The notes: a model not told the origin generated them from the sequence alone. DNA of 64,000 bases from an uncultured Ruminococcus sp. (GCF_934476685.1 NZ_CAKSNX010000005.1:23116-87115), one strand, 5' to 3'. Positions 1-61,185 are shown, counted from the first letter of the stretch. Made by a program: numbers and translations.

Positions 1-515
1 TGAAGCGTGACAAAATAGCTGAACTTGCAAAGGTACTTAAGTTAAACCCCGTTTCTCTTATTACAGGAGAAGAGGAAGTTGATGATACATCTGATATTTT
101 TGATGACTTTGACAATATCAAGCCATTGCAACTCAAAAGATTTCCACTGCTGGGCGAAATAGCTTGCGGAAAACCTATTTTTGCCGACGAAGATCATGAA
201 AGCTATGTTATGGCTGATACAGATATCCATGCTGACTTCTGCCTTAAAGCTAAAGGCGACAGTATGATCAATGCAAGAATTTTCGATGGTGATGTTGTAT
301 TTATCCGCAAAATGCCTATGGTAGAGAACGGAGATATTGCAGCTGTTATCATTGACGATGAGGCTACGCTGAAAAGAGTATATTATTATCCTGAAAAGAA
401 TAAGCTTATACTTAATCCTGAGAATCCAGCTTATGAACCACTTGTTTATATCAATGAGGAACTAAACTCTATTCGCATTCTCGGAAAAGCTGTGTGCTTT
501 ATGAGTGAGCTATAA
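1..515 (+). CDS. CI/LexA-like repressor (XRE HTH + S24 peptidase), 5' partial
   Basis: The frame is open from position 3 (KRDKIAELAKVLKLNPVSLITGEE looks like the end of an XRE HTH). The C-terminal S24 core has GDSM (Ser) and LKRV (Lys) motifs. No upstream stop is present, so the start lies outside the window. Confidence 0.8.
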   Translation, partial: KRDKIAELAKVLKLNPVSLITGEEEVDDTSDIFDDFDNIKPLQLKRFPLLGEIACGKPIFADEDHESYVMADTDIHADFCLKAKGDSMINARIFDGDVVFIRKMPMVENGDIAAVIIDDEATLKRVYYYPEKNKLILNPENPAYEPLVYINEELNSIRILGKAVCFMSEL

Positions 516-677: not shown

Positions 678-1748
678 ATGTTTTGTATGAGATGTGGTAA
701 AAATATCCCTGATTCAAGCAGGGTATGTCCGAACTGCGGCTTTCAGCTCCCTTCTATGGGTGCTGCTCCCAATATGCACAATAATCAAAATATTCCTAAC
801 GGGCAGAATATGTCCGGCTTTCAGCAGAACGGCAATATGAACAATATGAATGGCAGTTATCAGACTCCGCCAAACTATATCCCGAACGTTCCCCAGAATT
901 TTAAACCGCCAAAGAAAAAAAGCGGCTGTCTGTCATGGCTTTTGCTTATACTTATAATTATCGTAGTTGTGTTCGCAGGCTCTGCGATCTATGCCAGCCA
1001 TGAGGTCAACAAGGGAGATAACAGCGGAAATAAATCTGCGTTCACTCAGGAAGAATACAAAGAGCAATGTAACCCTATCTCATATGACGAAATGTCAAGA
1101 AACAGCAATGCATTCAAAGGAAAGTATTTCACCTGCTCCGGCGAGATCTCTCAGGAGATAGAAGAGGGACTTTACAGACTTACCCTCGATGATTCAAGAG
1201 AGTTCATCGTAATAGACTACCCAGGTCAAAGACTTCTTGAAGACGATCATGTGACTATATGGGGACAAAGTGTGGGATTTTTCAATGGAACGAACATACT
1301 TAACAGTAATATTAAGGTTCCGAAAATAGAAGTCGCATATCTTGAAAAATCCGAAAAGGTGATCCCGACCTTCAATATAGGGGAAACATGGACAGTTGAC
1401 GGCGAATGGAGCATAACCATAGATTCCGTAACCGTTACCGATGAGCGCAATGAATTTTCGGATAAAGACCCTGCTGCGGTCTATATAGTGAACTATACAT
1501 ATGAAAACCTCGGTGCAAAAGATGATCTGTATGTATCTTTCTATGACTGTGCAGTGGATAATCAGGGTACAATGGGTTACTCATATCCTATCAATATAAC
1601 ATCTCCTAAAATGACTCCAAAAGGCGCAAAATGCAGCGCACAGGCATGCATAGCCGTAGATAATGCAGGCAGCTTTACGATCAATTACTCCGACTATGAC
1701 AGTAACCTCAACGAACGTGAGGCTGTGTTTAATATTAATGTTGAATAA
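678..1748 (+). CDS. Zinc-ribbon membrane protein with a DUF4352-like extracytoplasmic beta domain
   Basis: AGGAGG RBS 7 nt upstream. N-terminal CxxC...CxxC (MRCGKNIP..CPNCG), an N/Q/P-rich linker, one TM segment (WLLLILIIIVVVFAG), and a C-terminal domain resembling DUF4352. Confidence 0.6.
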   Translation: MFCMRCGKNIPDSSRVCPNCGFQLPSMGAAPNMHNNQNIPNGQNMSGFQQNGNMNNMNGSYQTPPNYIPNVPQNFKPPKKKSGCLSWLLLILIIIVVVFAGSAIYASHEVNKGDNSGNKSAFTQEEYKEQCNPISYDEMSRNSNAFKGKYFTCSGEISQEIEEGLYRLTLDDSREFIVIDYPGQRLLEDDHVTIWGQSVGFFNGTNILNSNIKVPKIEVAYLEKSEKVIPTFNIGETWTVDGEWSITIDSVTVTDERNEFSDKDPAAVYIVNYTYENLGAKDDLYVSFYDCAVDNQGTMGYSYPINITSPKMTPKGAKCSAQACIAVDNAGSFTINYSDYDSNLNEREAVFNINVE

Positions 1749-1836: not shown

Positions 1837-1864
1837 TTGACAAAATATTTTTTTGTGCTATAAT
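1837..1864 (+). promoter_or_regulatory. Sigma-70-type promoter upstream of the Abi gene
   Basis: TTGACA (1837-1842), a 16-nt spacer, then extended -10 TGcTATAAT (1856-1864). Confidence 0.55.
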
Positions 1865-1912
1865 ATGTATTAGTGATCGCGTTACGGTATCCTGCGGGAC
1901 CGTAACCATGAA

Positions 1913-1946
1913 AAGCCTTCTGCTTTATGCGGGAGGCTTTTATTTT
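1913..1946 (+). terminator. Leader hairpin plus U-tract that overlaps the Abi RBS (attenuator-like)
   Basis: An 11-bp stem pairs aagccttctgc (1913-1923) with gcgggaggctt (1929-1939), including two G-U pairs, and is followed by ttattttat. The GGAGG RBS (1932-1936) lies in the 3' arm. A second hairpin, gttacggt/accgtaac, lies at 1881-1906. Confidence 0.45.
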
Positions 1947-2882
1947 ATGCCTGAAGATAAAATTTTTGCAACATATGACGAACAGATCGCAATTTTAAGA
2001 GAAAAAGGACTTTCTGTTACAAATGAAGAAGCAACAATAAAATGGCTGAAAAAGATCAGCTATTATTCCCTTATTTCAGGATACAAAGATATCTTTAAAG
2101 AAAAACCGAACGGAAATTACATATCAGGTACTGAATTTGAACATATAGTATGTTTGTACTTATTTGATGAAAATTTGAGAAGCGTGTTTTTACAGTTTAT
2201 AATAAAGATCGAAAAAAATATAAAATCACTTTACTCATACAGCTTTTGCGAATCATATGGTGACAAACAAAATGATTATCTTAACGTTACGAATTATAAT
2301 TGCAATAAATACGAAGCAGAAATAAATGAGCTGATCTCAATTATAAAAGAAAATATAAATAAGTCTAAAAAATATCCTTATGTAAATCATTATGTCAAAA
2401 AACATAAAAAAGAAGTGCCATTGTGGGTAATTATGAATACTTTGACATTTGGCAATATTTCTAAAATGTTTTCATTCTCTCAGCAGTCCTTGCAAAGTAA
2501 GATAGCCCGCAATTTCAAAGATGTTAACGGCAAAAAATTATCAACTATGCTCAATGTTATCTCAAAATTCAGAAATGTGTGCGCTCATGGTGAGAGATTG
2601 TACAACTTTAAAACCAAAAGTGCTATTCCGGATCTGCCACTGCATAAAAAGATCAGAGGTTCTTACAACGTAGGTAAAAAGGATCTGTTTAACGTCTGTA
2701 TTGCATTCAGATACTTGCTTTCTAAATATGATTTTGAAATGTTTTTAGAAGAATTGAAAGAATTAATAGATATATACTTTGATCGTCTGAATGATTATTA
2801 CAGAAGTGAAATACTTGAAAAAATGGGTTTCCCCGACAACTGGGAAGAGTTATTAAAACTAGAACAGGAGGTCAAACCATGA
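1947..2882 (+). CDS. Abi_2 (AbiD/AbiF-like) abortive-infection family protein
   Basis: The N-terminus YDEQIAILREKGLSV..ISYYSLISGYKDIF...FEHIVCLYLFDENLRSVF matches the remembered Abi_2 family pattern. The track ORF starts at 1908, but its first 13 codons are encoded by the leader hairpin. The ATG at 1947 has the GGAGG RBS. Confidence 0.8.
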   Translation: MPEDKIFATYDEQIAILREKGLSVTNEEATIKWLKKISYYSLISGYKDIFKEKPNGNYISGTEFEHIVCLYLFDENLRSVFLQFIIKIEKNIKSLYSYSFCESYGDKQNDYLNVTNYNCNKYEAEINELISIIKENINKSKKYPYVNHYVKKHKKEVPLWVIMNTLTFGNISKMFSFSQQSLQSKIARNFKDVNGKKLSTMLNVISKFRNVCAHGERLYNFKTKSAIPDLPLHKKIRGSYNVGKKDLFNVCIAFRYLLSKYDFEMFLEELKELIDIYFDRLNDYYRSEILEKMGFPDNWEELLKLEQEVKP

Positions 2883-4348
2883 AGATCGCTGCAGCTTATA
2901 TCCGTGTGTCTACTGAGGAGCAGACCGAACTTTCACCCGATTCGCAGGTCAGACTTATCCGTGAGTACGCTAAGAAAAACGGCTATATTCTCCCCGATGA
3001 GTTCATCTTTCACGACGACGGCATTTCGGGCAGGACTACTGCAAAGCGCCCAGGCTTTAATCAGATGATAGGTACGGCAAAGCTCAAACCTAAGCCTTTC
3101 GACGCTATCCTGCTGTGGAAATTCTCCCGTTTCGCCCGAAACCGTGAGGACAGTATCGTTTACAAATCCATGCTCCGCAAGCTGGGTATCGACGTTATAT
3201 CTATCTCCGAGAACGTCGGCGACGATAAAATGTCTGTGCTTATCGAGGCTATGATAGAGGCTATGGACGAGTATTACAGCATAAATCTTGCCGAAGAGGT
3301 CAAGCGTGGTATGCTGGAAAAACTCAGCCGTGGAAAGGCTGTGAATGCTCCGCCTATCGGGTACACCATTAAAGACGGCACATATGTCCCCGACGCAAAT
3401 GCCGACCTCATCAAGCGGATATTCAGCGACTTCCTTGACGGCATAGGCTACCTCAACATCGCCCGCAGGCTAAATGACGAGGGGTACAGGACACTCAAGG
3501 GCAACAGGTTTGAAAACCGCACCATAGAGTACATTATCCGCAACCCCGTCTACGCAGGAAAGCTCCGCTGGACACCCGGCGGAGGCGGTTCACGCAGCCA
3601 TTATCACGGCTCACAGGAGGTTATGGTCACAGAGGGCAGCCACCAGCCTATTATCCCTCCCGACCTTTGGGAAAAGGCTCAGGAACGTGCCAACGAGCTG
3701 AAACAGCATTACGGGAAATTCGCAAGGGACAGCGCCGTCAAGAATGATTTTATGCTCCGTGGACTGCTGAGATGTTCCGACTGCGGCGCTGTGCTGGTCA
3801 ATTCGGGGGCAGGCTATCAGTGCCACAGGTATGCTCACGGGTTCTGCGAACATTCGCATTATATCTCAAAGGCAAAAGCAGACGAAGCGGTGCTGAAAGG
3901 TCTGCGTGAGGCTGCCGCCGATTCGGATATACATATAGAAACACGCTCCGCAAGGGAAAGGCAGACTGCCGCCGCAGAGAACACAGAGCTGCTGCTCCGA
4001 CGTGAGTACGAAAAGCTCCAGCGTGTCCGTGAAGCCTATGCCGCAGGGATAGATACTCTGGAGGAATACAAGGAAAACAAGCGCAGGCTCAATGAGGAGA
4101 TAGAAAGGCTCAAAGCCGTCAAGGCAAAGGCAGAGGAAAACAGACCGCCGATGACAAAGGAGCAGGCTCGCCGAACGCTTATGACCATGATAGATGATTT
4201 CCTTATCCTTGCCGCCGACCCCAACGTCACCCCCGCCGTCCTTAACAGCACACTGAGAACATTTGTGAGCAGTATCGTCTTTTCAAGATCCGACCGACCG
4301 AGGTCACGCAGAGAGGACGAGAAGGTCACGATTTTTTATTATGTATGA
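2879..4348 (+). CDS. Large serine recombinase (integrase/excisionase type)
   Basis: N-terminal resolvase catalytic domain (AAYIRVSTEEQ...SPDSQ), a recombinase domain, a Cys-rich zinc-ribbon (CSDCG...CHRYAHGFCEH) and a coiled-coil tail. ATGA overlap with the Abi stop. Confidence 0.9.
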   Translation: MKIAAAYIRVSTEEQTELSPDSQVRLIREYAKKNGYILPDEFIFHDDGISGRTTAKRPGFNQMIGTAKLKPKPFDAILLWKFSRFARNREDSIVYKSMLRKLGIDVISISENVGDDKMSVLIEAMIEAMDEYYSINLAEEVKRGMLEKLSRGKAVNAPPIGYTIKDGTYVPDANADLIKRIFSDFLDGIGYLNIARRLNDEGYRTLKGNRFENRTIEYIIRNPVYAGKLRWTPGGGGSRSHYHGSQEVMVTEGSHQPIIPPDLWEKAQERANELKQHYGKFARDSAVKNDFMLRGLLRCSDCGAVLVNSGAGYQCHRYAHGFCEHSHYISKAKADEAVLKGLREAAADSDIHIETRSARERQTAAAENTELLLRREYEKLQRVREAYAAGIDTLEEYKENKRRLNEEIERLKAVKAKAEENRPPMTKEQARRTLMTMIDDFLILAADPNVTPAVLNSTLRTFVSSIVFSRSDRPRSRREDEKVTIFYYV

Positions 4349-4462
4349 CTATCGGTTTTTGCAGTCTGCACCGCCAAGCTGACTTATAATGACCTTCGCC
4401 AGCGCAGGGTTCGGGTCCTTGATGTTTACAGGGTACTGTAATTTTTTCTCATACTGCCACAT
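4349..4462 (-). pseudogene. cotJC: cotJC 5' fragment (split gene): 33 conserved codons followed by CKNR-stop
   Basis: The minus strand from 4462 reads MWQYEKKLQYPVNIKDPNPALAKVIISQLGGAD|CKNR*. This matches the CotJC N-terminus (MW.YEKKLQYPV...NP.LAK..I.Q.GGADGEL). TGATG start/stop overlap with cotJB. Confidence 0.8.
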
Positions 4463-4725
4463 CAGCTCTCACCCCTTTCCCATGGAAAAGGCTCTGCTAC
4501 CCAGTCCCACTTCGTTTCTGCAAGGGACTGCCTTGCGGTTATCGGACCGTATTTTTTCGTGTATTCAGCCGCCGCCTTGTCGTATTCCTCTTTGTGCTTG
4601 CGGAAATACTCCAACCCCATTTTGCAGGTCGGGTGACTGTCAAGATACAGATTAGCCTCCACCAGCGCAAAACTGCATGACATCACCTTGCGCATCAGCC
4701 TCTGCTTTTCATTCAGCATGGGCAT
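4462..4725 (-). CDS. cotJB: Spore coat protein CotJB
   Basis: FALVEANLYLDSHP...YFRKH..Y..A...Y...YGPIT matches the CotJB family pattern. It lies between cotJA and the cotJC fragment. Confidence 0.85.
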   Translation of the reverse strand: MPMLNEKQRLMRKVMSCSFALVEANLYLDSHPTCKMGLEYFRKHKEEYDKAAAEYTKKYGPITARQSLAETKWDWVAEPFPWERGES

Positions 4726-4975
4726 TTCTTACAGCCTCCTCTCCGATAAACGGCTTATCAAGACTTGGGAAAATAGTTCCCCTCGCCAGCGCCACATCAC
4801 TCTCGTAAGGCGTTTCCCATTGCTGATACGGCACATATGCCATGGCAAGGGGCGTGCTTTTCGGGAATACCGAGTTCGGCAGAGGACAGCTCTCCACCCC
4901 GTCATCATTCTCCTTGGCAAACATTCTGCCCAGCAGCAGGCTCTCCGTTCTGCTAAGATCGTTCAATTTATCCAC
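4709..4975 (-). CDS. cotJA: Spore coat-associated protein CotJA
   Basis: LAMAYVPYQQWETPYESDVALARGTIFPSLDKPF matches the CotJA signature. The true start may be the TTG at 4966, which lies 8 nt after AAGGAG. Confidence 0.8.
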   Translation of the reverse strand: MDKLNDLSRTESLLLGRMFAKENDDGVESCPLPNSVFPKSTPLAMAYVPYQQWETPYESDVALARGTIFPSLDKPFIGEEAVRNAHAE

Positions 4976-5164
4976 TCCTTAAATCATTCATCTATTTTGT
5001 CGCTTTATGATCTTCATGATTTCTCCCGCCCTTTATACTATGCAGCCGACATAATTTGCGTGTGCCGTCTTGACGGAATTTTCGCACCGTGCTATACTTA
5101 TTAAGAAGCTCCCTGTTCTGCGGAGCATTTATTTTACCCGAAAATATGCAAAGGACGTTTTTTT

Positions 5165-10362: not shown

Positions 10363-11649
10363 TTAAAGATAAGCGCCGAATTCAACGTTCTCCTGATTGA
10401 TGCTCTCGATCTCATCATTTATACCGCTGACGATCTCTCCCGCCTTGTTCTTCTCGTCGATAAGTACAAGAAGCTGCGCCTGCATATCCTCGATCTGCTT
10501 CTTCATAGTTTCTACCTTTGTGTTGCAGTCGAATGCATTGTTCTCAGCGTCAACCTTCTTTGACTTAAGTTCTTCGATCTTCTGATTGTTGATTGCGATC
10601 TGCTCCTGAGCAAACTGCTTCATTTTTTCCATAGGGCTCATTCCCGAATCCTCCTTTGAATCGTCGGCGTCCGCCGCTAATTTATCGAATCCTATATCCG
10701 GAATATCATCCGTAACAGGATCTGGTGTTTTTCCAAGCTCCTTGTCCAGTGCGTCAAGGCTTATCGGGTCGATAGAAGGCATCTCAGGGATCTCCTCATC
10801 AGCGGCAGCCGCAGCCTTTGGTGCAGCAGGCTGTGCAGGTATCTCTGCGTCATCAGGAACAAGCTTAACTTCATGAGCAGGCTCTTCCTTTGCCGACTCG
10901 CCCACGAGATCAACGTGTGCCGCAGGCTCTTCCTTGTCGAAAAGTGAAACAGGCTTGCTGTCCTCCGCAAGTCCATAGCTTGCCGAAACAGGCTTAGGAT
11001 CGTCCCTCTTAGTATATGTCGGAGCGGCATATGCAGGCTTTACTGCTGCCGTATTATTTTCAAGTCCCGTAGCGAACTCGTTCGTCCTGCCGAATCCGTG
11101 CTTCTCAGGCTTTTCCGGCTCAGCCTTAGCCTCAGGCTCTTCCTGCTGCTTAGCGGCAAGCTCCTGACGGCGGAAATGTTCGTCCATTACCTCTGAAACC
11201 GCCTTTATCTCAGCCTTTTCACGGTTAAAGAACTCAGCCACGTCCGCAATAGATCTGCCCTTCTTGAGCATCTGTGCGATACCTGCAACAGATCTGTCCT
11301 CGAAACCGTTTTCATCCATATCAAGATTTATGCTCACCTTAGATGTATCAACGTGTTCCTCAGCCTTATCCTTCTTGCCCTTCTTGAAAAGGTCGCTGAC
11401 GTTCATATTGAGAACGCTCTTCTTCGATGCCTTTTCCTTCTCCTCATTATCAGCAGGCTGCTGTATATCAGGCTGCACATAGCTCTGATACTCAGGGAAA
11501 TATCTTTCGAGTATGCCTGCGATGTTTCCCTTCGGGATCTCCATTGTTCTCGCTATGGAGTCGATAGAGTATCCTTCCTTATATAAACGAACGATCTTTT
11601 CATTTGTGCTTTCGTCTTTTTTTCTTGCCAATGAAATCAGTCCTTCCAA
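10363..11649 (-). CDS. Hypothetical acidic protein with HTH-like N-terminal segments and a C-terminal coiled coil
   Basis: Long ORF. Two HTH-like stretches (EGYSIDSIARTMEIPKGNIAGIL and KGRSIADVAEFFNREKAEI), a long P/A/E/K-rich low-complexity middle, and a heptad-like C-terminus. No family recognised. Confidence 0.5.
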   Translation of the reverse strand: MEGLISLARKKDESTNEKIVRLYKEGYSIDSIARTMEIPKGNIAGILERYFPEYQSYVQPDIQQPADNEEKEKASKKSVLNMNVSDLFKKGKKDKAEEHVDTSKVSINLDMDENGFEDRSVAGIAQMLKKGRSIADVAEFFNREKAEIKAVSEVMDEHFRRQELAAKQQEEPEAKAEPEKPEKHGFGRTNEFATGLENNTAAVKPAYAAPTYTKRDDPKPVSASYGLAEDSKPVSLFDKEEPAAHVDLVGESAKEEPAHEVKLVPDDAEIPAQPAAPKAAAAADEEIPEMPSIDPISLDALDKELGKTPDPVTDDIPDIGFDKLAADADDSKEDSGMSPMEKMKQFAQEQIAINNQKIEELKSKKVDAENNAFDCNTKVETMKKQIEDMQAQLLVLIDEKNKAGEIVSGINDEIESINQENVEFGAYL

Positions 11650-11938
11650 CCAGAAATTGAAACTACGATATGTGCCTTTTATATATGCTAATATGCTCCA
11701 AGAAATTTATGTAAAACGATTTCGCTTACCCAAAGCGCACTTATGCCATAAACTGTAATAAAGAGCATATAAACAGCGTCACATTCGTAACTAAATATAT
11801 TATACAATATTTAATTTTAATTGTCAATATTAATAGTAGGATTCTCCAAAAAATATTATAAAAAAACTATTAATCGGTGTACGATTTATGACAAAATACT
11901 TATTTTTCACCAATAAATCAAATTTTCTAAAATTATTG

Positions 11939-12586
11939 TCATTTATCGGCAATTCTGACAAAGCGGCAGAAATCCCGTATTTTGTTGGGATCTTTGCCCG
12001 AACCTCCGTCAAATTCCACACCTGAGGACACATCTACGCCGTCAGGATGTACAATTTTCACAGCCTCTATAACGTTTTCAGGAGAAAGTCCCCCTGCCAG
12101 CAGGAACATTCTGCCCTTTGTATCTATATTTTCCAGCAGCGACCAGTCGAAAGTCTTTCCGCTGCCGTGATCCGCAGCGTCGAACACATATCCCGCTATC
12201 TTTTCACAGCCGTTCCATCGCCCTATCTCCCCCAGATCACTTACGTTGAAAGCCTTTAGTATCGGCAGCGGCGAATTTTCCATTACCTCCTCCGTCAGCT
12301 CACCGTGTATCTGAACGTAGTCGAAACCGATATCGGCTATCTTCCTCACCTGTTCAGCCGTCGGGGAAACCACCACAGCCGTCTTTTTAATGTCCGAGCC
12401 GTCCCCAAGCACCTTCACAAGCTCCTTCGCCGTTTCCTCATCAATGCATCGGCGGCTCTTCGGGAAAAACATCACCATTCCCGCAAAGTCAACACCGTTT
12501 TCTATAAGGTATCCGACCTCTTCCCTGTTTCTTATGCCGCATATTTTTATCAGCGTGCGCCCTCTATTTTCTGTCACGAACCTCAT
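11939..12586 (-). CDS. trpF: Phosphoribosylanthranilate isomerase
   Basis: IKICGI...D..GMVMF.PKS.R, QIHG and AGGL.PENV motifs. No other trp genes occur in the window. Confidence 0.8.
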   Translation of the reverse strand: MRFVTENRGRTLIKICGIRNREEVGYLIENGVDFAGMVMFFPKSRRCIDEETAKELVKVLGDGSDIKKTAVVVSPTAEQVRKIADIGFDYVQIHGELTEEVMENSPLPILKAFNVSDLGEIGRWNGCEKIAGYVFDAADHGSGKTFDWSLLENIDTKGRMFLLAGGLSPENVIEAVKIVHPDGVDVSSGVEFDGGSGKDPNKIRDFCRFVRIADK

Positions 12587-13023
12587 TCCCTTCCGTTTTC
12601 ATATTTCTCACAAAAATTATATCACTTCTCAGGCAAAATTTCAATATTTTTTTCTGTTGATCGCTATCTGAACGTCAATTTTCGACATTTGTGAACTTTA
12701 TATTAACCACATCAGCTTTATCTTCCCCAATATCATATTACTAAAACGTTTGATTGTTAATAACCATTGAGAAAATTAACATTTCATCATATTTAGTCCA
12801 CACTTTCGCAAACCTGCCTATTTTCCGCCTTTTCTATTTGTAAGATAAGTACAATAAACGTTTTCGTTAACCTGTTTATATGTGTAAACTTTAGAAAATT
12901 TAACTTAACTATTGATTTTTGCTAAAAGATATAATATAATGATAAATGTAAACGAAAGAACAAAACTCGGTGTCTATCCAATACCTAGGTCGACATTTTT
13001 CGCTGCTTGGGGGGCGACTTAAT

Positions 13024-14676
13024 ATGACTGAAAAAATCATCAATATCAAAACGGTCTGTGAACAGCTTATGGGGCTTGAAAGCTGCGATAAAAGGACTGT
13101 CAGCGAGGTTTTCTCGCCTGCCGCAGAACAGTACGGCATCGTCTGCGCTGCTGCTTTTCTTAACGACAAAAGGACGAATAAAGATCAGACGTTCTTTTTC
13201 TATTCCGATACTATCCCCGACGGCTTGCAGTCCGTCGAGTATTCACTTGATATAGACAATGAAAAAAATATGTGTGCAAAACTGTATCTTGACGAAAACG
13301 TTATATTAAATGAAAACGATGTCAGCGATATCAAATTTCTCTGCTGCACCTGCTGTTCGACTGCCATACGCTTTTATCTCGCCGATATGGTCGATCACTA
13401 TCACCATTACGACAAAGCAACAGGTCTGTATAATCTCAACGCACTTGAAAAGTTCTGCCATAGGATATCTGCCGCTGGAAAAGCTGACCAGTACACCGCA
13501 TTTTTTTTCAATATCATCAGCTTCAACTATGTGAACCGCAAAGCAGGCTATAAGTACGGCACAGAAATGCTCCGCCAGTACGGCTCAAAGCTTGTCGAAT
13601 TTGCAGGCAGCGACGGCATTATCGTAAGAATAGGCGGCGATAACTTCGGCGCATTTATCCCGAACGTAAAGGTGGACGAGTTCCTTAAAAGGCTCGACCG
13701 CACCGATATCACCGTCAACACCGAGGCAGGAAAGCTCACTTTCTCCCTCAGTGCCAGAGCAGGTATCTATCATATAGACGAGCCGAACAAGGATTTCGGT
13801 ATGATAATGAACTATATCTCTGCCACAGCCAACTACGCAAAGAACTTTTCACGCACTCCCCTTGTCACATACACCCCTCAGATCGAAGAAGAATTCATTG
13901 CGAGAAAGGAATATACCCAGCGTTTCGCAAGGTCACTTGAAAACGGCGACTTCTATGTGCTTTATCAGCCGAAAGTCTTTACGGACGGCAACAGTATCTA
14001 CGGCGGCGAGGCACTTGTAAGGTGGGTATATGACGGACAGACTATCTCCCCTGCGGAATTTGTTCCCGTGCTTGAAAAGGAACATCTTATCTGTGCGCTG
14101 GATTATTTCGTACTTGAAAAGACCTGTCAGACTATCCGTGAGTGGATAGATCAGGGAATCACTCCTGCAAAAATTTCCGTAAACTTCTCCAACGAGCATC
14201 TCTATGAAGATGACCTTGTGGAAAGGATAACCGAAATAACCGACAGATACGGCATAGATCATAAATATCTGGAAATGGAACTGACCGAAACAGTCGATCC
14301 CGAAAGTTCCTCACGTCTGAAAAAATACGTTGACGGACTCCACGCAAACGGCTTTACCGTAGCGCTGGACGATTTCGGCACAGGCTATTCCTCACTCCAG
14401 CTGCTCAACTTTGTGAACGTTGACGTGCTGAAAATAGATAAGTCCTTTGTAAACGAGCTTAGCGACGATACAAAGAACCGAGAGAACATCATTCTGCGCA
14501 ACATCATCAATATGGCAGTAGAACTTGGCATAGAGATAGTAGCCGAGGGCGTCGAGAACAACGAGCAGAAAGTAAACCTTGAAAATCTGCGGTGCAACCG
14601 CATACAGGGATATATATACGACAAACCCCTTGCAGCCAACGAATTTGCAAAAAGGCTGAAAGCGAAAATATACTGA
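13024..14676 (+). CDS. Degenerate-GGDEF / EAL domain protein (c-di-GMP phosphodiesterase type)
   Basis: RIGGDNFGAF is a degenerate GGDEF. EAL motifs are EALVRW, ELTET, DDFGTGYSSL, KIDKSF and EGVE. The ATG at 13024 follows a G-rich RBS. Confidence 0.8.
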   Translation: MTEKIINIKTVCEQLMGLESCDKRTVSEVFSPAAEQYGIVCAAAFLNDKRTNKDQTFFFYSDTIPDGLQSVEYSLDIDNEKNMCAKLYLDENVILNENDVSDIKFLCCTCCSTAIRFYLADMVDHYHHYDKATGLYNLNALEKFCHRISAAGKADQYTAFFFNIISFNYVNRKAGYKYGTEMLRQYGSKLVEFAGSDGIIVRIGGDNFGAFIPNVKVDEFLKRLDRTDITVNTEAGKLTFSLSARAGIYHIDEPNKDFGMIMNYISATANYAKNFSRTPLVTYTPQIEEEFIARKEYTQRFARSLENGDFYVLYQPKVFTDGNSIYGGEALVRWVYDGQTISPAEFVPVLEKEHLICALDYFVLEKTCQTIREWIDQGITPAKISVNFSNEHLYEDDLVERITEITDRYGIDHKYLEMELTETVDPESSSRLKKYVDGLHANGFTVALDDFGTGYSSLQLLNFVNVDVLKIDKSFVNELSDDTKNRENIILRNIINMAVELGIEIVAEGVENNEQKVNLENLRCNRIQGYIYDKPLAANEFAKRLKAKIY

Positions 14677-14684
14677 AAATAACA

Positions 14685-14724
14685 ATGCGGTGCAGAATTT
14701 CCCTCTGCACCGCATATTTTGTTT
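14685..14724 (+). terminator. Rho-independent terminator
   Basis: Stem atgcggtgcag/ctgcaccgcat followed by attttgttt. Confidence 0.7.
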
Positions 14725-14748
14725 GTGATTATGTGAAATTTCAGTCAA

Positions 14749-14797
14749 CTGACATAATGCGAGTTTGCAATTAGCTGACATTATGCGAATTTGCAAT
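14749..14797. repeat. Two copies of a 23-bp direct repeat, ctgacataatgcga(g/a)tttgcaat, with 26-bp period
   Basis: Units lie at 14749-14771 and 14775-14797 and differ at one base. They are flanked by tcaact on both sides and sit directly next to repeat copy A. Confidence 0.6.
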
Positions 14798-14800
14798 CAA

Positions 14801-14996
14801 CTGGCGACCACAGGTCGCCCCTACGCAAACGTTGAGAAAAAAAACACATAAGACCTCATCAAAGTCGGTTTCAGTAAAAGCCATATCTCTGTTTCTTCCG
14901 AGCGCAAAGTAACAGCCCCGACCGCCGACAGCGAGCTTGCCGAGCGTCCCGAATTACCCCGACCGGTGAGGTCGCCCGTCCGGCGAGGACCGAGGG
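14801..14996 (-). repeat. Modular intergenic repeat, copy A (REP-like hairpin + M1 body)
   Basis: ggcgaccacaggtcgcccctac (14803-14824) followed by the M1 body (..catcaaagtcggtttcagtaaaagccatatctc.gtttcttccgagcgcaaagtaa..cagcgagcttg.cgagcgtcccgaattacccc..). It aligns by eye with copies B-F and ends one base before the TAG stop of the GH13 gene. Confidence 0.85.
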
Positions 14997-37885: not shown

Positions 37886-38200
37886 CCGCCCCCATAAAAG
37901 GGACGACTAAAAAATCGTGATACCACCCTAATTACAAAGAATTCCCTAGTTCTCGAAACCTTATCGTTCTTGGAGTTTCTCAGTCCTTGGAACTTTCCAA
38001 CCCTTTAACCGAACGCCCATTAACAAAACGTCCCGAACAAAAGATCCTCTGTCACTCAAGATCCTTAACGCAGATGTACGTCCGCCCTTGAACAAGCGGA
38101 AGCTCCGAGGTGTCCTTCACCGCCATCGCCGCTGAGCCCTCTCACCGTATGGCTCTCGCTGAAAACAGCCGAAAACAGTTACTCTCCTCATCAAAGCCTG
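37886..38200 (-). promoter_or_regulatory. T-box leader with overlapping GAC (Asp) / CAC (His) in the specifier position
   Basis: The minus strand shows GAUGAGGAGAGUA, AGCGAGAG..GGUGAGAG, GUGAAG-GACAC-CUCGG (38114-38110), the T-box sequence AAUUAGGGUGGUAUCACG (37933-37916), and terminator gucguccc/ggggcggc + U6. Confidence 0.8.
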
Positions 38201-38244
38201 TTGCATTTTCACTTTGAACTTTTACTAATTTACCCCTGTGACCG

Positions 38245-41898: not shown

Positions 41899-41940
41899 AA
41901 AAAAAGCGGAACGATGCAATAAAACATCGTTCCGTTTTTT
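41899..41940. terminator. Bidirectional terminator shared by the lipid kinase gene and rnpB
   Basis: Stem cggaacgatg/catcgttccg with A7 upstream and T6 downstream. Confidence 0.75.
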
Positions 41941-42285
41941 GTGACCAGACCTGTAAGCCGAGTTTTGTCGAGTACGGTAATCTATCTACTCCGTGCGTCG
42001 CCGCACGGCTCTAGCCACCTATGATCTGCGGTCTGACGAGCAGCCATTGACCGTTAGACCACCATTGGTGTTGCATCGGATAAGGTTTACATGGCAGCGT
42101 CATCACTGACGCTCCGGTGAGCTCTTACCTCGCCTTTCCACCCTTACCGAAATAAATCGGCGGTATATCTCTGCTGCACTAGCTCGGAGGTCGCCCTCGG
42201 CTGACGTTATCAGCTATCCTGCTCTGTGATGCTCGGACTTTCCTCATAAACATAAAACGTTCACGCTACCGTACAGTCTGCTCAC
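41941..42285 (-). ncRNA. rnpB: RNase P RNA (bacterial type A)
   Basis: The minus strand carries GAGGAAAGUCCGAGC, GGUAAGGGUGGAAAGG.GAGGUAAGAGCUCACC, AGAUAGAUUACC and ACAAAACUCGGCUUACAG. A P1 helix pairs GUGAGCAGACUG with CAGGUCUGGUCAC. Length is about 345 nt. Confidence 0.9.
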
Positions 42286-53064: not shown

Positions 53065-54012
53065 TTATCCCCTCTGTCCGTATCTGTCCGTGTAACAGCC
53101 TATCTGCGTGTATATGCCGCCCTTTGAGCCGCTTATCCTTATGCTGTTTATCCTCATCGCATTCATGTAACTCAGTCCGCTTACCTTGTCCATAAGCTCC
53201 TCGCCCCTGTATCCTGCATAAGTCACAAAACGTGTCCTTACCTGCCTTGCCGCATAACCTATCCTTGCGTCAAGTCCCTCATCAGTGGAGTAAAGCCACT
53301 GCATATCAAGTGGATCATACTTCTCTCTCACTATCCCGTATTCCCCCGCAAGTTCGTCCGACTTCTCATAGCTGTATCCGCCGTCTATGTCCGCCATGTG
53401 TACCCCCGATAAAAGGGAAGATGTCATTAGCCTTGTCCCCTGCTCTATAAGCTTCACCCCCGAAAAATCCCTCATCACACTGTCGTTCATGGTCACGCAT
53501 ACCGTGTTCGTCCTGCGTATGTACGGAAAATTCCCCGTCGCCTTCAGCGAATATGCCCTCACAGCGTCCCATATGTTCGACTTCTCCTTAACGTAAATGT
53601 ACCCCACCACAGGCGTCCCCGACTCGCATACTATCTCCGATATGTTCAGATTTTTCTTTATCAGCCCGTTCAGATCACAGTCCGAGTTTATCTTCGGATA
53701 AGGTTCGTTCTGCGCCAACAGTACAGTAAAACTCCGTGACGTAAAATCAATTATCCACCCCGACTTCTCCCTTTTGATCTCCACCGAATCCGCCAGCCCG
53801 TCAAAACTCAGCACATTGTTTACATAAAGCCTTATCCTCTTGATGTCAAATGCACTGAACGTGGGCGTTTTCGGCATATAAAATTTTCCCGTCGCATATG
53901 CAAAACAGTAGTATAACCTCTTTGATATGCTGAAACTTATGCAGTCGGAAATTTTTATAGATCCTCCGCCGCAAAGCTGTACCTCAAGATAACATCTCAT
54001 ATCTATCTCCAT
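53065..54012 (-). CDS. Phage-cluster protein of unknown role (315 aa)
   Basis: Last gene of the cluster; its start directly abuts the upstream gene's stop. No family recognised by eye. It could be a major tail or baseplate-type protein. Confidence 0.5.
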   Translation of the reverse strand: MEIDMRCYLEVQLCGGGSIKISDCISFSISKRLYYCFAYATGKFYMPKTPTFSAFDIKRIRLYVNNVLSFDGLADSVEIKREKSGWIIDFTSRSFTVLLAQNEPYPKINSDCDLNGLIKKNLNISEIVCESGTPVVGYIYVKEKSNIWDAVRAYSLKATGNFPYIRRTNTVCVTMNDSVMRDFSGVKLIEQGTRLMTSSLLSGVHMADIDGGYSYEKSDELAGEYGIVREKYDPLDMQWLYSTDEGLDARIGYAARQVRTRFVTYAGYRGEELMDKVSGLSYMNAMRINSIRISGSKGGIYTQIGCYTDRYGQRG

Positions 54013-54378
54013 TTAATCCCCTCCGAATCTGAATTCAAATTCACCAAGACGGCAGCCTGCCTTTATCTCCGCCGTCCCGGCTAGCATTACAGGCGACTTC
54101 TTTATCTCCTCACCGTCAATAATAAGCGCACCCGCCTCATCATTGAACCCCTCGATAAATTTCATAAAGTATCCCCTGTCCTCAGGTGAAAAATGCCCCC
54201 GCACAGTAACTTCACCCTCATGCGAGCCAACGTATCTTGAAAATATCCCGCTCCCCAGCGTGGCAGTTTCCGCCGTTGTCCCCTTTTTGGAATAGGATAT
54301 CTCATCAAAATATATCTTTACAGCCTCCGTCCCATTGCGTTCAAGCGTGTGCGCAGGCAAAGCATATTCCGCCCTCAT
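54013..54378 (-). CDS. Phage-cluster small protein (121 aa), connector/neck-sized
   Basis: 4-nt overlap with the upstream gene. Call rests on position after the capsid gene. Confidence 0.5.
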   Translation of the reverse strand: MRAEYALPAHTLERNGTEAVKIYFDEISYSKKGTTAETATLGSGIFSRYVGSHEGEVTVRGHFSPEDRGYFMKFIEGFNDEAGALIIDGEEIKKSPVMLAGTAEIKAGCRLGEFEFRFGGD

Positions 54379-54782
54379 TCATCTTCCTCCAAACATATCC
54401 TTGCGTTCAGCGTAAGCTCCCTGGTCAGCCTGTTCAGCGGAGATGAAAGATATATCTTCCCCAGCTTCATGCTGCGTATGAGCAAACCGCCGTCCACAAT
54501 GAATTTCCCGTACAGATCATCACATCTCGCCGTAAATTCCTCCACATCAGCGTGATCGCACGACTTCCCCATAAGCCTTATGCTCATACAGCAGTCAAGC
54601 TCCGCCGACAGCTTTTTAGAAGTACACCCCATAGCCGTCCCCACAAGCTGACAGTCCTTCAAAGCGTAAAAACCAATGTATTCGTCCTTGTGGATAAGAC
54701 TGTCCACCGCCGTAAATTCACCGAAAGCCGAAAATCCGCACTTCTCCAGTAACCCCGTTATCACATCAAAAAGTTCGTCCAT
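54375..54782 (-). CDS. Phage-cluster small protein (135 aa), connector/neck-sized
   Basis: 1-nt overlap with the upstream gene (ATG start shares its A with the upstream TAA stop). Call rests on position only. Confidence 0.5.
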   Translation of the reverse strand: MDELFDVITGLLEKCGFSAFGEFTAVDSLIHKDEYIGFYALKDCQLVGTAMGCTSKKLSAELDCCMSIRLMGKSCDHADVEEFTARCDDLYGKFIVDGGLLIRSMKLGKIYLSSPLNRLTRELTLNARICLEEDE

Positions 54783-55162
54783 TATGCCCCTCCCGTAGTT
54801 TCAAATAAAAATTCCTCGTCCTTGAATATCTCCCCAAGACCGCCTAAAGCAGATATCTTCAAACGCTGCGCCGCATCTATCCTCGAACTGAGATCTTCCG
54901 ACATACTAGCCTTGCCGTCAGCCGTGCAGATGAGCCGTTCTCTTGCCTGTAAAGCGCAAACATGATCGTAAACCGCACAGCAAGCCGCCGCATATTCACA
55001 TCGAGCAATAAGATCACCGCCGCCTGCTAAAAGCTTGTCCTCATCAATAAGAGCCGTAAGCCTGTCCGCAGCATTTTTGATAAGCGGCATCTGATCGTTC
55101 ATCTTCTCAACATCACAACCGCTCAACTGTTGAAAAATCAAAAGAATATTGTTAAAATCCAA
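54782..55162 (-). CDS. Phage-cluster small protein (126 aa), head-tail adaptor-like by position
   Basis: TTG start 7 nt after GGAGGGG. First gene after the capsid gene, but separated from it by repeat copy F. Confidence 0.5.
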   Translation of the reverse strand: MDFNNILLIFQQLSGCDVEKMNDQMPLIKNAADRLTALIDEDKLLAGGGDLIARCEYAAACCAVYDHVCALQARERLICTADGKASMSEDLSSRIDAAQRLKISALGGLGEIFKDEEFLFETTGGA

Positions 55163-55213
55163 TCTATCCCCTCCTAAGTAATAAAATCAAAATTGAAAAA
55201 ACAAAATAAAGAA

Positions 55214-55665
55214 AAAGCAATCACAAACTATCAAACGCACAAAGCAAGTTTTAGGCTAAAGCCCTTTTCCAAAAGGGCTTTCAGGGATTCAAAAGGGGCA
55301 GCGCCCCTTTGTCGCTCCCGCAGGAGCGAAATCCCCCACAGCGTGAGCTCCGCATAGGGTGAATTTGAAAATAGTCCAGCGGACTGTTTTCAAAGAGGGG
55401 CAAGCCCTGCGATAGAGGGCTGCCCCTTACTCGCCTCCCGCACAAACTCCCCCGCAAGGGCTTGTCCCTTGCGCTGTCCTCGGTCGGGTCTTCCCAGACG
55501 GGGTAATTCGCTACGCTCGGTAAGCTCGCTGTCTGCTGTGCGGTCTTTTACTTTTGTGCTCGGAAGAAACCGAGATATGTCTTTTACTAAAACCTACTTT
55601 GCTAATGTCTAATGTGGAATTTTTCTCAATGTTTCCGTAGGGGCGACCTGCGGTCGCCCGCTTAT
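55214..55665 (+). repeat. Modular intergenic repeat, copy F (complete M2 + M1 body + REP-like hairpin), located inside the phage-derived operon
   Basis: M2 spans about 55214-55480 and is near-identical to copy E. The M1 body spans 55490-55636. The GTAG hairpin is at 55637-55659. Confidence 0.85.
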
Positions 55666-55790
55666 ATCATTCCCACTAACCCCAAGTTTCCACCGTTCCC
55701 CAAATACCCACGATCGCTCCCCTAAAACTTTGCCAAACCCTTACACCACCTCACAAAACAATTCCCCACCCGCCACACCCCAAATTCATC

Positions 55791-56777: not shown

Positions 56778-56892
56778 AAATAAATTTCTCCTTTTCATTT
56801 TTAGTATTGTTTTTTATTTTCTCTCTTTTTTCTCTTTTCTTATTGTCCGTTTGCCGTCCCATAGTTTTTTATCCGGTAACCAACTTTTCCGC

Positions 56893-57789: not shown

Positions 57790-57828
57790 TCTCTTTCCTC
57801 CCTCTCGTTACTTTTTATTCTCATAATT

Positions 57829-60350: not shown

Positions 60351-60353
60351 CGG

Positions 60354-60854: not shown

Positions 60855-61185
60855 GTTTGCCCTCCGTTCTTTTTTTCGACCGCCGATCACTCAGCAAGTC
60901 CTTTCACTAACATCGAAAAACCGCCCGAAAGTTGCACTAAAACGTACAACAATTACTCAAATATATCTAAATTAAATTATTTATCATATACTTGCACAAT
61001 CTATTACACCATTTCCTGTGCATGACCCACAAACAGCCGCACACCATTCGTGAATTAGTATTAATTTCAAAACATTTGTGAAACTGCCACAAAATCACAG
61101 AGAAAATTTATCCATTAAAAAGTATTGACAAAATAAATATTTGTTGTAAAATATAAAATAGAAGTAAAAATAAGGGGGAAAACTT

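What the first reader, a model, noticed from the sequence alone, without database searches (positions are those of the whole stretch)
2879..4975. The spore-coat gene cotJC is split by a mobile element carrying a large serine recombinase (skin/SPbeta-like layout)
Reading the minus strand from 4462, with a TGATG overlap to cotJB, gives MWQYEKKLQYPVNIKDPNPALAKVIISQLGGAD. This matches the conserved CotJC N-terminus (Mn-catalase-like, normally about 190 aa, continuing GGADGEL...). Similarity stops after the Asp codon (4364-4366), and the frame ends four codons later (CKNR, stop at 4349-4351). About 16 bp further left is the stop codon (4346-4348) of a convergent 489-aa large serine recombinase. That gene is preceded by an Abi gene, a zinc-ribbon membrane protein and an S24 CI/LexA-type repressor. 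Together these look like the lysogeny end of a temperate element that runs off the left edge of the window. A recombinase gene hard against the junction inside a mother-cell sporulation gene is the architecture of B. subtilis skin (sigK/SpoIVCA) and SPbeta (spsM/SprA), where excision in the mother cell rebuilds the gene. The alternative is an active-lysogeny switch, or a simple knockout of cotJC. I cannot say from memory whether cotJC has been reported as such a target.
Basis: partly seen in the sequence, partly recalled or inferred. Interest (0 to 1): 0.85.

Follow-up and report, generated by a model that had tools for sequence, protein, structure and literature searches.

The report
Prophage splits spore-coat gene cotJC
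A temperate phage of a gut Ruminococcus has inserted, through its large serine recombinase, into the spore-coat catalase gene cotJC at a 12-bp site that a whole clade of related phages also uses; this is a new example of the known SPbeta/skin-type layout, and whether the phage is cut out again during sporulation is untested.

Summary
Window 4349-4462(-) is a 37-aa cotJC stub behind cotJA and cotJB. It is convergent with a 489-aa large serine recombinase (LSR, 2879-4348), which follows Abi_2, a zinc-ribbon membrane protein and an HTH+S24 repressor.

The window holds no cotJC 3' half. Public contigs of the same species (identical CotJB) carry either an intact 198-aa cotJC or the same junction. 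The missing half (codons 31-198, 98-100% identical, no frameshift) lies beside a phage lysis end.

attL, attR and attB share the core TCAGCTTGGCGG (window 4371-4382). The rebuilt attP is an imperfect palindrome centred on the last GG. That GG is positions 1-2 of the invariant Gly31 codon, so excision would restore cotJC exactly.

LSRs 39-59% identical to this one are inserted at the same codon (20 IMG/VR loci) or carry the same type of attP (17 loci). Other elements hit cotJC near codons 61-69.

A consensus sigma-A promoter drives Abi-LSR. No recombination directionality factor (RDF) or sporulation promoter was found in the phage DNA available.

Verdict: a genuine temperate prophage in cotJC with an SPbeta-like layout. 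Mother-cell excision is plausible (about 0.4) but unshown. cotJC has already been listed as such a target, so this is a new member of a known kind.

The parts
1..515 (+). 3' part of the prophage CI-type repressor gene (HTH + peptidase S24). Its first ~126 nt lie left of the window.
   Evidence: Pfam Peptidase_S24, E=2.6e-26. The full 213-aa gene is at L001 6996-7637: HTH_3 + S24, phrog_4 transcriptional repressor, E=1e-40. It is divergent from a 70-aa Cro-like repressor.
678..1748 (+). Prophage cargo gene: zinc-ribbon membrane protein (356 aa).
   Evidence: Pfam Zn_Ribbon_1, E=3.7e-7. Conserved next to the LSR in all same-species prophage variants.
1837..1864 (+). Consensus sigma-A promoter (TTGACA-16-TGcTATAAT) upstream of the Abi_2-LSR bicistron.
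   Evidence: 12 of 12 match with an extended -10 TG. Function is inferred, not shown.
1947..2882 (+). Abi_2 (AbiD/F-like abortive-infection) gene. Its stop overlaps the LSR start (ATGA).
   Evidence: Pfam Abi_2, E=6.2e-49. phrog_2158, E=1.4e-77. Called as 311 aa in L001; the longest ORF starts at 1908.
2879..4348 (+). Large serine recombinase (phage integrase), 489 aa.
   Evidence: Resolvase E=3e-28, Recombinase E=6.5e-23, Zn_ribbon_recom E=2.5e-6. The N-terminal domain matches the TP901-1 integrase catalytic domain in the PDB. 145 IMG/VR relatives.
4349..4370 (-). P' arm of attR: the phage half-site TGCAGACTGCAAAAACCGATAG in cotJ sense. It encodes the stub's tail (A)DCKNR*.
   Evidence: Diverges from attB immediately after the core. 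It is the inverted-repeat partner of the phage arm in attL (15 of 22 dyad matches).
4371..4382 (-). 12-bp common core TCAGCTTGGCGG (cotJ sense), shared by attL, attR and attB. The predicted crossover dinucleotide GG is at 4371-4372, positions 1-2 of the Gly31 codon.
   Evidence: coordinates. The dyad centre is the same in 17 real attP sites of related phages. GG is invariant in 16 host cotJC genes.
4349..4462 (-). cotJC 5' stub ORF (37 aa). Host-derived DNA is 4371-4462 (codons 1-30 plus GG of codon 31).
4462..4725 (-). cotJB (87 aa).
   Evidence: Pfam CotJB, E=1.5e-27. The identical protein occurs in same-species contigs with and without the prophage.
4709..4975 (-). cotJA (85-88 aa).
   Evidence: Pfam CotJA, E=1.7e-19.
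5034..5061 (-). SigK-type promoter-like motif (AC-N17-CATAgtaTA) upstream of cotJA.
   Evidence: It is one of only 2 matches in 12.4 kb (about 1.1 expected by chance) and the only intergenic one. Weak evidence, post hoc.

Best explanation
**What it is.** The left 4.4 kb of the window is the lysogeny end of a temperate tailed phage. The phage integrated into the mother-cell spore-coat gene cotJC of a Ruminococcus species closely related to R. albus.

**Shown from sequence comparison.**
- The phage's large serine recombinase gene ends 22 bp from a 12-bp core, TCAGCTTGGCGG.
- That core is common to attL, attR and the empty attB.
- The rebuilt attP is a ~46-bp imperfect palindrome whose dyad centre is the final GG of the core.
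- This GG is positions 1-2 of the invariant Gly31 codon in the QLGG(P/A)DGE motif of CotJC.
- Integration leaves a 31-codon stub. From what is known of Mn catalases, this should lack every metal ligand.
- Integration also leaves a 3' half without a promoter at the far end of the prophage. Recombination of attL with attR at GG would restore cotJC to the base.

**Inferred.**
- The LSR is made constitutively, together with Abi_2, from a consensus sigma-A promoter.
- Direction is therefore set by a phage RDF that has not been identified, as in SPbeta (SprA/SprB).
- Excision follows autocleavage of the S24 repressor after DNA damage.
- cotJC is a safe landing pad because it is silent in growing cells, and because its Gly-Gly codons cannot drift.

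**Open.** Whether the RDF is also switched on in the mother cell, so that cotJC is rebuilt during sporulation. I put this at about 0.4.
For: **The parts are real.** Stub, cotJB, cotJA, LSR, Abi_2 and the repressor are confirmed.

**The element is a phage.**
- CI/Cro switch, RecT, SSB and Lin1244 genes lie left of the window in L001.
- Amidase_2 endolysin and DUF4760 genes lie at the attL end.

**The insertion is polymorphic within one species.** Among contigs with identical CotJB, about 7 carry an intact 198-aa cotJC and about 11 carry the same junction. The occupied ones have mosaic immunity regions.

**The other end exists.**
- The attL fragment P0121 is 98% identical to the intact gene. P0239 in L118 is 100% identical.
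- It is followed by the same PBECR / 224-aa / MetH genes as the empty site.

**Core and centre.**
- Dyad symmetry of the rebuilt attP is 15 of 22, against 5 of 22 for attB.
- The centre is the same GG as in 17 genuine attP sites of related IMG/VR phages and in the circular genome PQ006094.1.

**The clade shares the target.** 20 IMG/VR proviruses with LSRs 39-59% identical abut cotJC fragments that break at residues 28-31. L010 (LSR 69% identical) and L009 carry the same stub.

**Promoter.** A consensus sigma-A promoter lies at 1837-1864.
Against: - attL and attR were not seen on one molecule. The full prophage was not recovered, so it could be defective in this strain.
- No exact attP of this phage was found in IMG/VR or JGI contigs, so there is no direct evidence that this particular phage excises.
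- No RDF and no intergenic sigE/sigK-type motif were found in the 10 kb of phage DNA available.
- The promoter is a consensus match only.
- Mother-cell expression of cotJ in Ruminococcus is inferred from B. subtilis and from one weak sigK-like motif.
Confidence: 0.85

Rival explanations
1. SPbeta/skin-like developmental switch. The prophage is excised specifically in the mother cell, by LSR plus an RDF under sigE/sigK control. cotJC is rebuilt for coat assembly, while the forespore keeps the prophage.
For: - The layout matches: an LSR at the junction of a coat gene, intact halves and exact restoration.
- The LSR appears constitutive, as SprA is.
- Elements of this kind that have been examined experimentally excise during sporulation: skin, SPbeta, phi3T/kamA, vfbin, vrin, gin and yin (PMC4191935, PMC6957869, PMC5595907, PMC10747680).
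- cotJC is hit at several sites by unrelated LSR elements, and a deep LSR clade is dedicated to it. That fits selection for mother-cell genes.
- The 3' halves in lysogens show no decay.
- About 60% of same-species contigs are occupied.
Against: - No sporulation-type promoter or RDF was found in the phage DNA available.
- Intact halves are also expected after recent integration.
- The variants look like active, mosaic phages rather than domesticated remnants.
- From memory, B. subtilis cotJ mutants have only mild coat phenotypes, so rescue may not be needed.
Confidence: 0.4
2. Plain tolerated knockout. cotJC is merely a conserved, dispensable attB. Lysogens make CotJC-less spores, and the gene returns only when the phage is induced or lost.
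For: - Standard SOS-type switch: HTH+S24 repressor and Cro.
- Free attP genomes of relatives show an ordinary phage life cycle.
- No sporulation signals were found.
- C. difficile cotJC paralogue mutants lose catalase activity but not coat formation (PMC11222575).
Against: - cotJC is strongly conserved in these species: 93-99% among R. albus strains.
- Lysogeny at the site is common, so a real loss of function would be costly.
- Precedent from other mother-cell gene insertions.
Confidence: 0.45
3. Old deletion remnant or pseudogene. The stub is a decayed leftover, unrelated to the neighbouring recombinase.
For: Only that the window itself holds no 3' half.
Against: - The breakpoint is exact and identical in at least 8 assemblies and in two other species.
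- The matching attL with an intact 3' half exists.
- The empty site differs only by the absence of the element.
Confidence: 0.01
4. Assembly chimera that joined phage and host contigs at a short repeat.
For: Metagenome contigs often break inside this prophage.
Against: - The same junction occurs in independent ENA, Logan and GTDB assemblies from different studies.
- The junction has the expected LSR att architecture.
Confidence: 0.01

Closest known systems
SPbeta prophage in spsM of Bacillus subtilis (SprA integrase, SprB RDF); phi3T in kamA
   Same: - An apparently active temperate phage inside the coding region of a mother-cell sporulation gene.
- An LSR next to an att site, apparently made constitutively.
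- A short common core, with exact restoration on excision.
- A stress-inducible repressor.
   Different: - Different host class (Clostridia, gut Ruminococcus) and target gene.
- The LSR is under 30% identical to any cultured-phage integrase in INPHARED.
- No sprB-like gene lies next to the LSR; an Abi_2 gene does instead.
- Sporulation-linked excision is shown for SPbeta (PMC4191935) and not here.
skin in sigK (SpoIVCA/Skr in B. subtilis; CD1231/CD1234 in C. difficile)
   Same: An LSR-bearing element splits a mother-cell gene, with the recombinase near the junction.
   Different: - skin is a defective remnant, and its excision is obligatory for sporulation.
- Here the element looks like a full, mosaic, population-polymorphic phage.
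- The target is a probably non-essential coat enzyme.
Previously listed cotJC insertions (Abe et al. 2013 survey, as cited in bioRxiv 10.1101/2021.11.22.469490; skin-like element in cotJC of Laceyella sacchari, bioRxiv 10.1101/2022.02.25.481979)
   Same: The same target gene, interrupted by a phage- or skin-like element.
   Different: - Those are one-line survey entries in Bacilli-type hosts.
- The passages I read give no att sites, integrase clade or population data.
- Here the site, core, attP architecture and a dedicated LSR clade in gut Clostridia are defined.
vfbin/spoVFB, vrin/spoVR, gin/gerE, yin/yabG intervening elements
   Same: Site-specific recombinase elements inside mother-cell sporulation genes.
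   Different: Different genes and recombinases. Excision of those during sporulation or growth phase is shown experimentally (PMC5595907, PMC10747680).
Characterised LSR integrases (phiC31, Bxb1, TP901-1, A118)
   Same: - Domain architecture.
- An attP of about 45-50 bp that is an imperfect palindrome.
- A less symmetric attB.
- A non-palindromic central dinucleotide that sets polarity.
- The integrase gene lies beside attP.
   Different: - Only the catalytic domain is detectably similar to solved structures.
- The 12-bp shared core is longer than in most of these (from memory).
- Within this clade the orientation of attP relative to the LSR gene flips.

Membership tests
Large serine recombinase (phage integrase) system | N-terminal resolvase catalytic domain with a serine nucleophile | tested here: met
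   PF00239, E=3e-28, residues 4-153. The motif AAYIRVSTEEQ has Ser11. Matches the TP901-1 integrase catalytic domain 3bvp.
Large serine recombinase (phage integrase) system | Recombinase domain plus zinc-ribbon domain in a C-terminal extension of more than 300 aa | tested here: met
   PF07508, E=6.5e-23 (residues 174-272). PF13408, E=2.5e-6 (residues 292-343), above the gathering score. The coiled-coil insert was not tested formally.
Large serine recombinase (phage integrase) system | attP is an imperfect palindrome; attB and attP share a central dinucleotide; no target duplication beyond the shared core | tested here: met
   The rebuilt attP has 15 of 22 dyad matches centred on GG. 17 related attP sites share that centre. 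attL, attR and attB share only the 12-bp core.
Large serine recombinase (phage integrase) system | A separate recombination directionality factor controls excision | tested here: inconclusive
   No recognisable RDF among the small early ORFs of L001. RDFs have no common family, and most of the prophage was not available.
Sporulation-gene intervening element (skin/SPbeta type) | Insertion inside the coding region of a mother-cell-specific sporulation gene | tested here: met
   The target is cotJC within a cotJABC operon. Mother-cell expression is inferred from B. subtilis sigE control (from memory) and a weak sigK-like motif.
Sporulation-gene intervening element (skin/SPbeta type) | An element-encoded site-specific recombinase, with both gene halves intact so that excision rebuilds the ORF | tested here: met
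   The LSR ends 22 bp from the core. The 5' part is identical to intact alleles. The 3' part is 98-100% identical without frameshift. The in-silico joint equals attB.
Sporulation-gene intervening element (skin/SPbeta type) | Excision occurs during sporulation, confined to the mother cell | not testable with these tools
   Needs culture DNA or RNA. Exact attP searches in IMG/VR and JGI contigs found nothing.
Sporulation-gene intervening element (skin/SPbeta type) | Recombinase or RDF under a sigE/sigK promoter | tested here: inconclusive
   The LSR sits behind a consensus sigma-A promoter. The only sigE/sigK-like matches in 11 kb of phage DNA lie inside genes. The motifs carry little information, and the rest of the phage is unseen.
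CotJC / Mn-catalase family (PF05067) | N-terminal MW.YEKKLQYPV...GG.DGE motif and cotJA-cotJB-cotJC synteny | tested here: met
   Pfam E=6.4e-8 for the stub. 94% identity to residues 1-33 of intact Ruminococcus CotJC. Synteny.

The most novel reading that the evidence does not exclude
A deep clade of gut-Clostridia phages has specialised on one invariant Gly-Gly site of cotJC. It uses the site as a developmental switch. The prophage leaves the mother-cell chromosome during sporulation and rebuilds the coat catalase, while the spore keeps the prophage. Lysogeny, present in about 60% of sampled contigs of this species, then travels with spores at no cost. Alternatively it toggles the oxidative resistance of spores, and so host-to-host transmission, across the population. 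Together with the other LSR elements at codons 61-69, this would make cotJC a main 'phage dock' of sporulating gut anaerobes, a counterpart of sigK/spsM in Bacilli.
Probability: 0.3. Interest if true: 0.7.

Novelty: new member of a known kind. Interest (0 to 1): 0.45.

Why it matters
- Prophage or LSR elements that split mother-cell sporulation genes are an established class, studied mainly in Bacillus and a few Clostridium/Clostridioides species.
- This case extends the class to abundant gut Ruminococcus/Oscillospiraceae, and it comes with fully defined attB, attP, attL and attR sites.
- It points to a large, uncharacterised LSR clade (39-100% identity) with one conserved 12-bp-core target. 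The crossover dinucleotide sits in codon positions that synonymous change cannot alter.
- That gives a clean system for asking whether sporulation-coupled excision exists in gut anaerobes, and whether lysogeny changes spore-coat catalase and spore transmission.
- It also offers a set of natural LSR/att pairs that could be useful as integration tools.
- For annotation: short 'Mn catalase' ORFs of 37-83 aa in these genomes are insertion stubs, not small genes.

Tried and rejected
- **Stub as query:** a 33-aa stub is too short for the protein search.
- **3' half in the window:** looked for and not found; only residues 1-33 hit.
- **Genome-contig scan with CotJB:** the species is not among the representatives found (best 77% identity). 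The scan did give intact R. albus cotJC and two more species with the same stub.
- **Exact attP searches for this phage:** IMG/VR twice and JGI metagenomes once, 0 hits each. The attL pattern in JGI gave one contig, L118.
- **Full prophage:** not recovered. Contigs break inside it, and look-ups are limited to window proteins or search hits, so walking left beyond about 10 kb was not possible.
- **sigE/sigK consensus scan of L001:** only matches inside genes within the phage, plus one upstream of cotJA. Too little information to decide.
- **PHROGs scan of small early ORFs for an excisionase or RDF:** none found.
- **Cultured relatives:** the best cultured-phage LSRs are 29-30% identical (Faecalibacterium phages). 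The best overall, at 46.5%, is a metagenomic genome.
- **Rejected:** deletion remnant and assembly chimera (see rival explanations).
- **Rejected:** the idea that about 70-83 aa is the normal CotJC length in this clade. Those are stubs of other insertions.
Full report
**1. Observation**

The minus-strand ORF at 4349-4462 reads MWQYEKKLQYPVNIKDPNPALAKVIISQLGGADCKNR. It overlaps the stop of an 87-aa ORF (4462-4725), which in turn overlaps an 88-aa ORF (4709-4975).

Pfam assigns these three to Mn_catalase (stub residues 1-33 to profile positions 1-33, E=6.4e-8), CotJB (E=1.5e-27) and CotJA (E=1.7e-19).

The convergent 489-aa ORF at 2879-4348 has the Resolvase, Recombinase and Zn_ribbon_recom domains. 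The ORFs before it are Abi_2, a zinc-ribbon protein and a peptidase-S24 fragment. Every element of the finding is therefore present.

Two small corrections apply. The two stop codons are directly adjacent (4346-4348 and 4349-4351). And the host/phage DNA boundary lies at 4370/4371, not after the Asp codon (section 3).

**2. What lies around it**

An exact-protein look-up of the recombinase found the same arrangement on 8 public contigs. The 10 kb to the left (L001) holds:
- a full 213-aa HTH+S24 repressor, divergent from a Cro-like gene;
- small early genes;
- an SMC-like ATPase, RecT, a metallo-beta-lactamase-fold protein, SSB and a Lin1244-type replication gene.

This is the lysogeny/early region of a temperate phage.

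tblastn with an intact CotJC found only residues 1-33 in the window, so the 3' half is not within these 64 kb.

The rest of the window is ordinary chromosome: DXS, GGDEF/EAL, glycosidases, CysS, AspS/HisS behind a T-box, and RNase P RNA. A separate phage head-gene cluster lies at 53-61 kb.

**3. Empty site, other end, and the att sites**

*Empty and occupied sites.* Looking up the window's exact CotJB sequence returned contigs of the same species in two states.
- L024-L028 carry an intact 198-aa cotJC followed by PBECR-type genes, a 224/237-aa gene, metH and addBA. L026 is NCBI assembly GCA_964315445.1.
- L023 and L029-L032 carry the window's junction. The LSR, Abi_2 and zinc-ribbon module is the same, but the immunity regions differ (S24 repressor, or HTH + M78 ImmA, or others).
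- Counting the places not shown, about 11 contigs are occupied and 7 are empty.

*The boundary.* DNA alignment shows identity between empty and occupied sites up to ...CAGCTTGGCGG and none after it.

*The other end.* A search with the C-terminal 167 residues of the same-species CotJC returned many N-terminally replaced fragments. Among them is P0121 (182 aa, 98% identical, MYHYYLYYLFF + QLGGPDGEL...). Its contigs, L033-L037, show this order:
1. phage endolysin (Amidase_2), DUF4760 and a small ORF;
2. the junction;
3. cotJC codons 28-198;
4. the same PBECR / 224-aa / MetH genes as in the empty site.

A JGI contig (L118) has the same attL arm with different phage cargo and a 100% identical cotJC 3' part.

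*The three sites*, written in cotJ sense:

| Site | Sequence |
|---|---|
| attL | ...TATCTGTTTTT-TCAGCTTGGCGG-ACCCGATGG... |
| attR | ...ATTATAAG-TCAGCTTGGCGG-TGCAGACTGCAAAAACCGATAG... |
| attB | ...ATTATAAG-TCAGCTTGGCGG-ACCCGATGG... |

The common core is 12 bp, at window 4371-4382.

*The rebuilt attP.* Joining the two phage arms gives an attP with 15 of 22 dyad-symmetric positions, against 5 of 22 for attB. Its centre is the last GG of the core. Because the two arms mirror each other, they very probably come from one attP, even though attL and attR were not seen on one contig.

*Position in the gene.* The GG is positions 1-2 of the Gly31 codon and is preceded by Gly30. It is invariant in all 16 intact or otherwise-interrupted host genes examined. 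attP and attB agree at 25 of 50 positions.

Residues A32 and D33 of the stub are therefore phage-encoded mimicry of the host P/A-D. Recombination at GG would rebuild ...QLGGPDGEL... exactly.

**4. A dedicated recombinase clade**

A scan of IMG/VR with the LSR gave 145 relatives; the best 80 were examined.

*Integrated forms.*
- In 20 loci, whose LSRs are 39-59% identical to the window's, the DNA just beyond the LSR gene is a cotJC fragment that breaks at residues 28-31.
- In 18 of these the LSR is co-directional with the 3' fragment, the opposite arrangement to the window.
- In 2 (L058, L100) it is convergent with a 1-31 stub, as in the window.

*Free attP forms.*
- In 17 further loci the DNA after the LSR gene is an uninterrupted imperfect palindrome.
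- It has the form ...TTTTnnAGTnTGG(C/T)-GG-nnC...AAAA..., centred on the same GG. These are true attP sites of non-integrated genomes.
- The circular 32-kb GenBank genome PQ006094.1 (LSR 46.5% identical) has the same attP type.

*Orientation.* The orientation of attP relative to the LSR gene flips among lineages.

*Other species.* Two other Ruminococcus species in GTDB carry the same stub. These are L009 and L010; in L010 the convergent LSR is 69% identical.

*Cultured relatives.* No cultured phage has a close relative of this LSR. The best are Faecalibacterium phages at 29-30%.

**5. Other insertion sites in cotJC**

The N-terminal search returned more than 100 protein clusters of 46-83 aa. 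All diverge from CotJC around ...LTDIG|TEELAH (codons 61-69), with several different tails. Examples:
- An element with a 564-aa LSR (29% identical to the window's), a PemK toxin, ABC transporters and a two-component system (L004-L006).
- A prophage in R. albus SY3 (L007), which breaks after codon 67.
- P0177, which breaks after GELG.

Intact cotJC (198-199 aa) exists in R. albus 8, AR67, KH2T6 and others. cotJC is therefore a multi-site target for unrelated LSR elements in this group.

**6. Regulation: what can and cannot be said**

*Promoter for the LSR.* A 12-of-12 sigma-A consensus with an extended -10 (TTGACA-16-TGcTATAAT, 1837-1864) precedes Abi_2. The Abi_2 stop overlaps the LSR start. 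This suggests constitutive co-expression of Abi and integrase in the lysogen, as for SprA of SPbeta (PMC4191935, PMC6957869). Direction would then depend on an RDF.

*No RDF or sporulation promoter found.* None is recognisable among the early small ORFs. sigE/sigK-type motifs in the 11 kb of phage DNA available occur only inside genes. The one intergenic sigK-like match lies upstream of cotJA (window 5061-5034). These motifs carry too little information to settle anything, and about three quarters of the prophage was not available.

**7. Mechanism**

- *Shown:* a site-specific, polymorphic, exactly reversible insertion of a temperate phage at a defined core in cotJC. A clade-wide shared target and attP architecture.
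- *Inferred from the LSR family:* cleavage and exchange at the central GG. Integration by the LSR alone. Excision needing an RDF.
- *Inferred from the S24 repressor:* induction by DNA damage.
- *Open:* whether excision is also programmed in the mother cell.

For programmed excision: the precedents (skin, SPbeta, phi3T, vfbin, vrin, gin, yin); the repeated choice of cotJC by unrelated elements; strong conservation of cotJC despite frequent lysogeny; and undecayed halves.

Against: the elements look like ordinary active phages; no sporulation signal was found; and CotJC-type catalases appear dispensable for coat formation (PMC11222575, and B. subtilis work from memory).

I put programmed mother-cell excision at about 0.4 and a plain tolerated knockout at about 0.45.

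**8. Comparison with what is known, and novelty**

The layout is that of SPbeta/spsM and phi3T/kamA (an active phage with an LSR in a mother-cell gene) rather than skin (a remnant in an essential gene).

cotJC has been named as such a target before:
[quoted passage not shown] Full-text searches found no description of the att sites, of a cotJC-dedicated LSR clade, or of the phenomenon in Ruminococcus or gut Clostridia.

I therefore file it as a new member of a known kind. It is of moderate interest, mostly for the clade-wide target specificity and as a route to testing sporulation-coupled excision in gut anaerobes.

Noticed in passing
window 53065-60890 (- strand): A compact phage head/packaging cluster: large terminase 59013-60350, portal 57829-59016, phrog_16951 56893-57789, major head protein 55791-56798, and small ORFs 54013-55162. 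It sits between host ABC-permease genes and a BspA-type LRR protein. No tail, lysis or integrase genes were recognised in about 8 kb. It could be a remnant, a GTA-like cluster or a capsid-forming island.
   Followed up: partly
L004-L007, and proteins P0001-P0120 (related loci): cotJC of Ruminococcus relatives is also interrupted around codons 61-69 (DIG|TEELAH) by unrelated elements. One is a 564-aa-LSR element with PemK, ABC-transporter and two-component cargo. Another is a prophage in R. albus SY3. More than 100 clusters of 46-83-aa 'Mn catalase' ORFs are such stubs. P0177 indicates a further site after GELG.
   Followed up: partly
L009 13181-13936 (+), uncultured Ruminococcus MAG CALCRR010000113.1: The element at the same cotJC site in this species is not obviously a phage at this end. 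It encodes a secreted protein whose N-terminal domain looks very like eukaryotic ubiquitin by eye ([70 protein letters not shown]). It is flanked by two ORFs, 12239-13126 and 13967-14962, that share a C-terminal domain with each other, and by an ORF that may be an HUH-type Rep.
   Followed up: no
window 1871-1946 (+): The leader between the sigma-A promoter and the Abi_2 start holds two strong hairpins: GTTACGGT...ACCGTAAC at ~1880-1907 and AAAAGCCTTC...GGAGGCTTTT at 1911-1941. The second is terminator-like and buries the GGAGG Shine-Dalgarno of the 1947 start. This may be attenuation or translational control of Abi and the LSR.
   Followed up: no
L024-L028 and L033, ~11000-13500 (downstream of cotJC): The stretch between cotJC and metH varies among strains of the species. 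It holds 0-2 PBECR2/PBECR3 (barnase/EndoU/RelE-like nuclease) genes and small ORFs, suggesting a toxin/immunity islet next to the att site.
   Followed up: no
IMG/VR loci L038-L117: Within one LSR clade, attP lies immediately downstream of the LSR gene but in either orientation. Prophages therefore sit in cotJC with the LSR either convergent with the 5' stub (window, L010, L058, L100) or co-directional and upstream of the 3' fragment (L039-L048, L056, L063 and others).
   Followed up: partly
protein P0126: This 176-aa 'CotJC' starts with MCIRDR. From memory, that is the translation of the Nextera transposase adapter, so it is a contig-end artefact in the protein database and not an insertion junction.
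   Followed up: no
literature, PMC11222575: In C. difficile R20291 the phi027 prophage lies directly next to a CotJC-like Mn-catalase gene (CDR20291_1465). Whether its attB is related to the sites seen here was not checked.
   Followed up: no
window 41938-42284 (-) and 37896-38203 (-): RNase P RNA (class A, 254 bits), and a T-box leader upstream of the DUF218-hisS-aspS operon. Both are ordinary. No tRNA genes occur in the window.
   Followed up: yes
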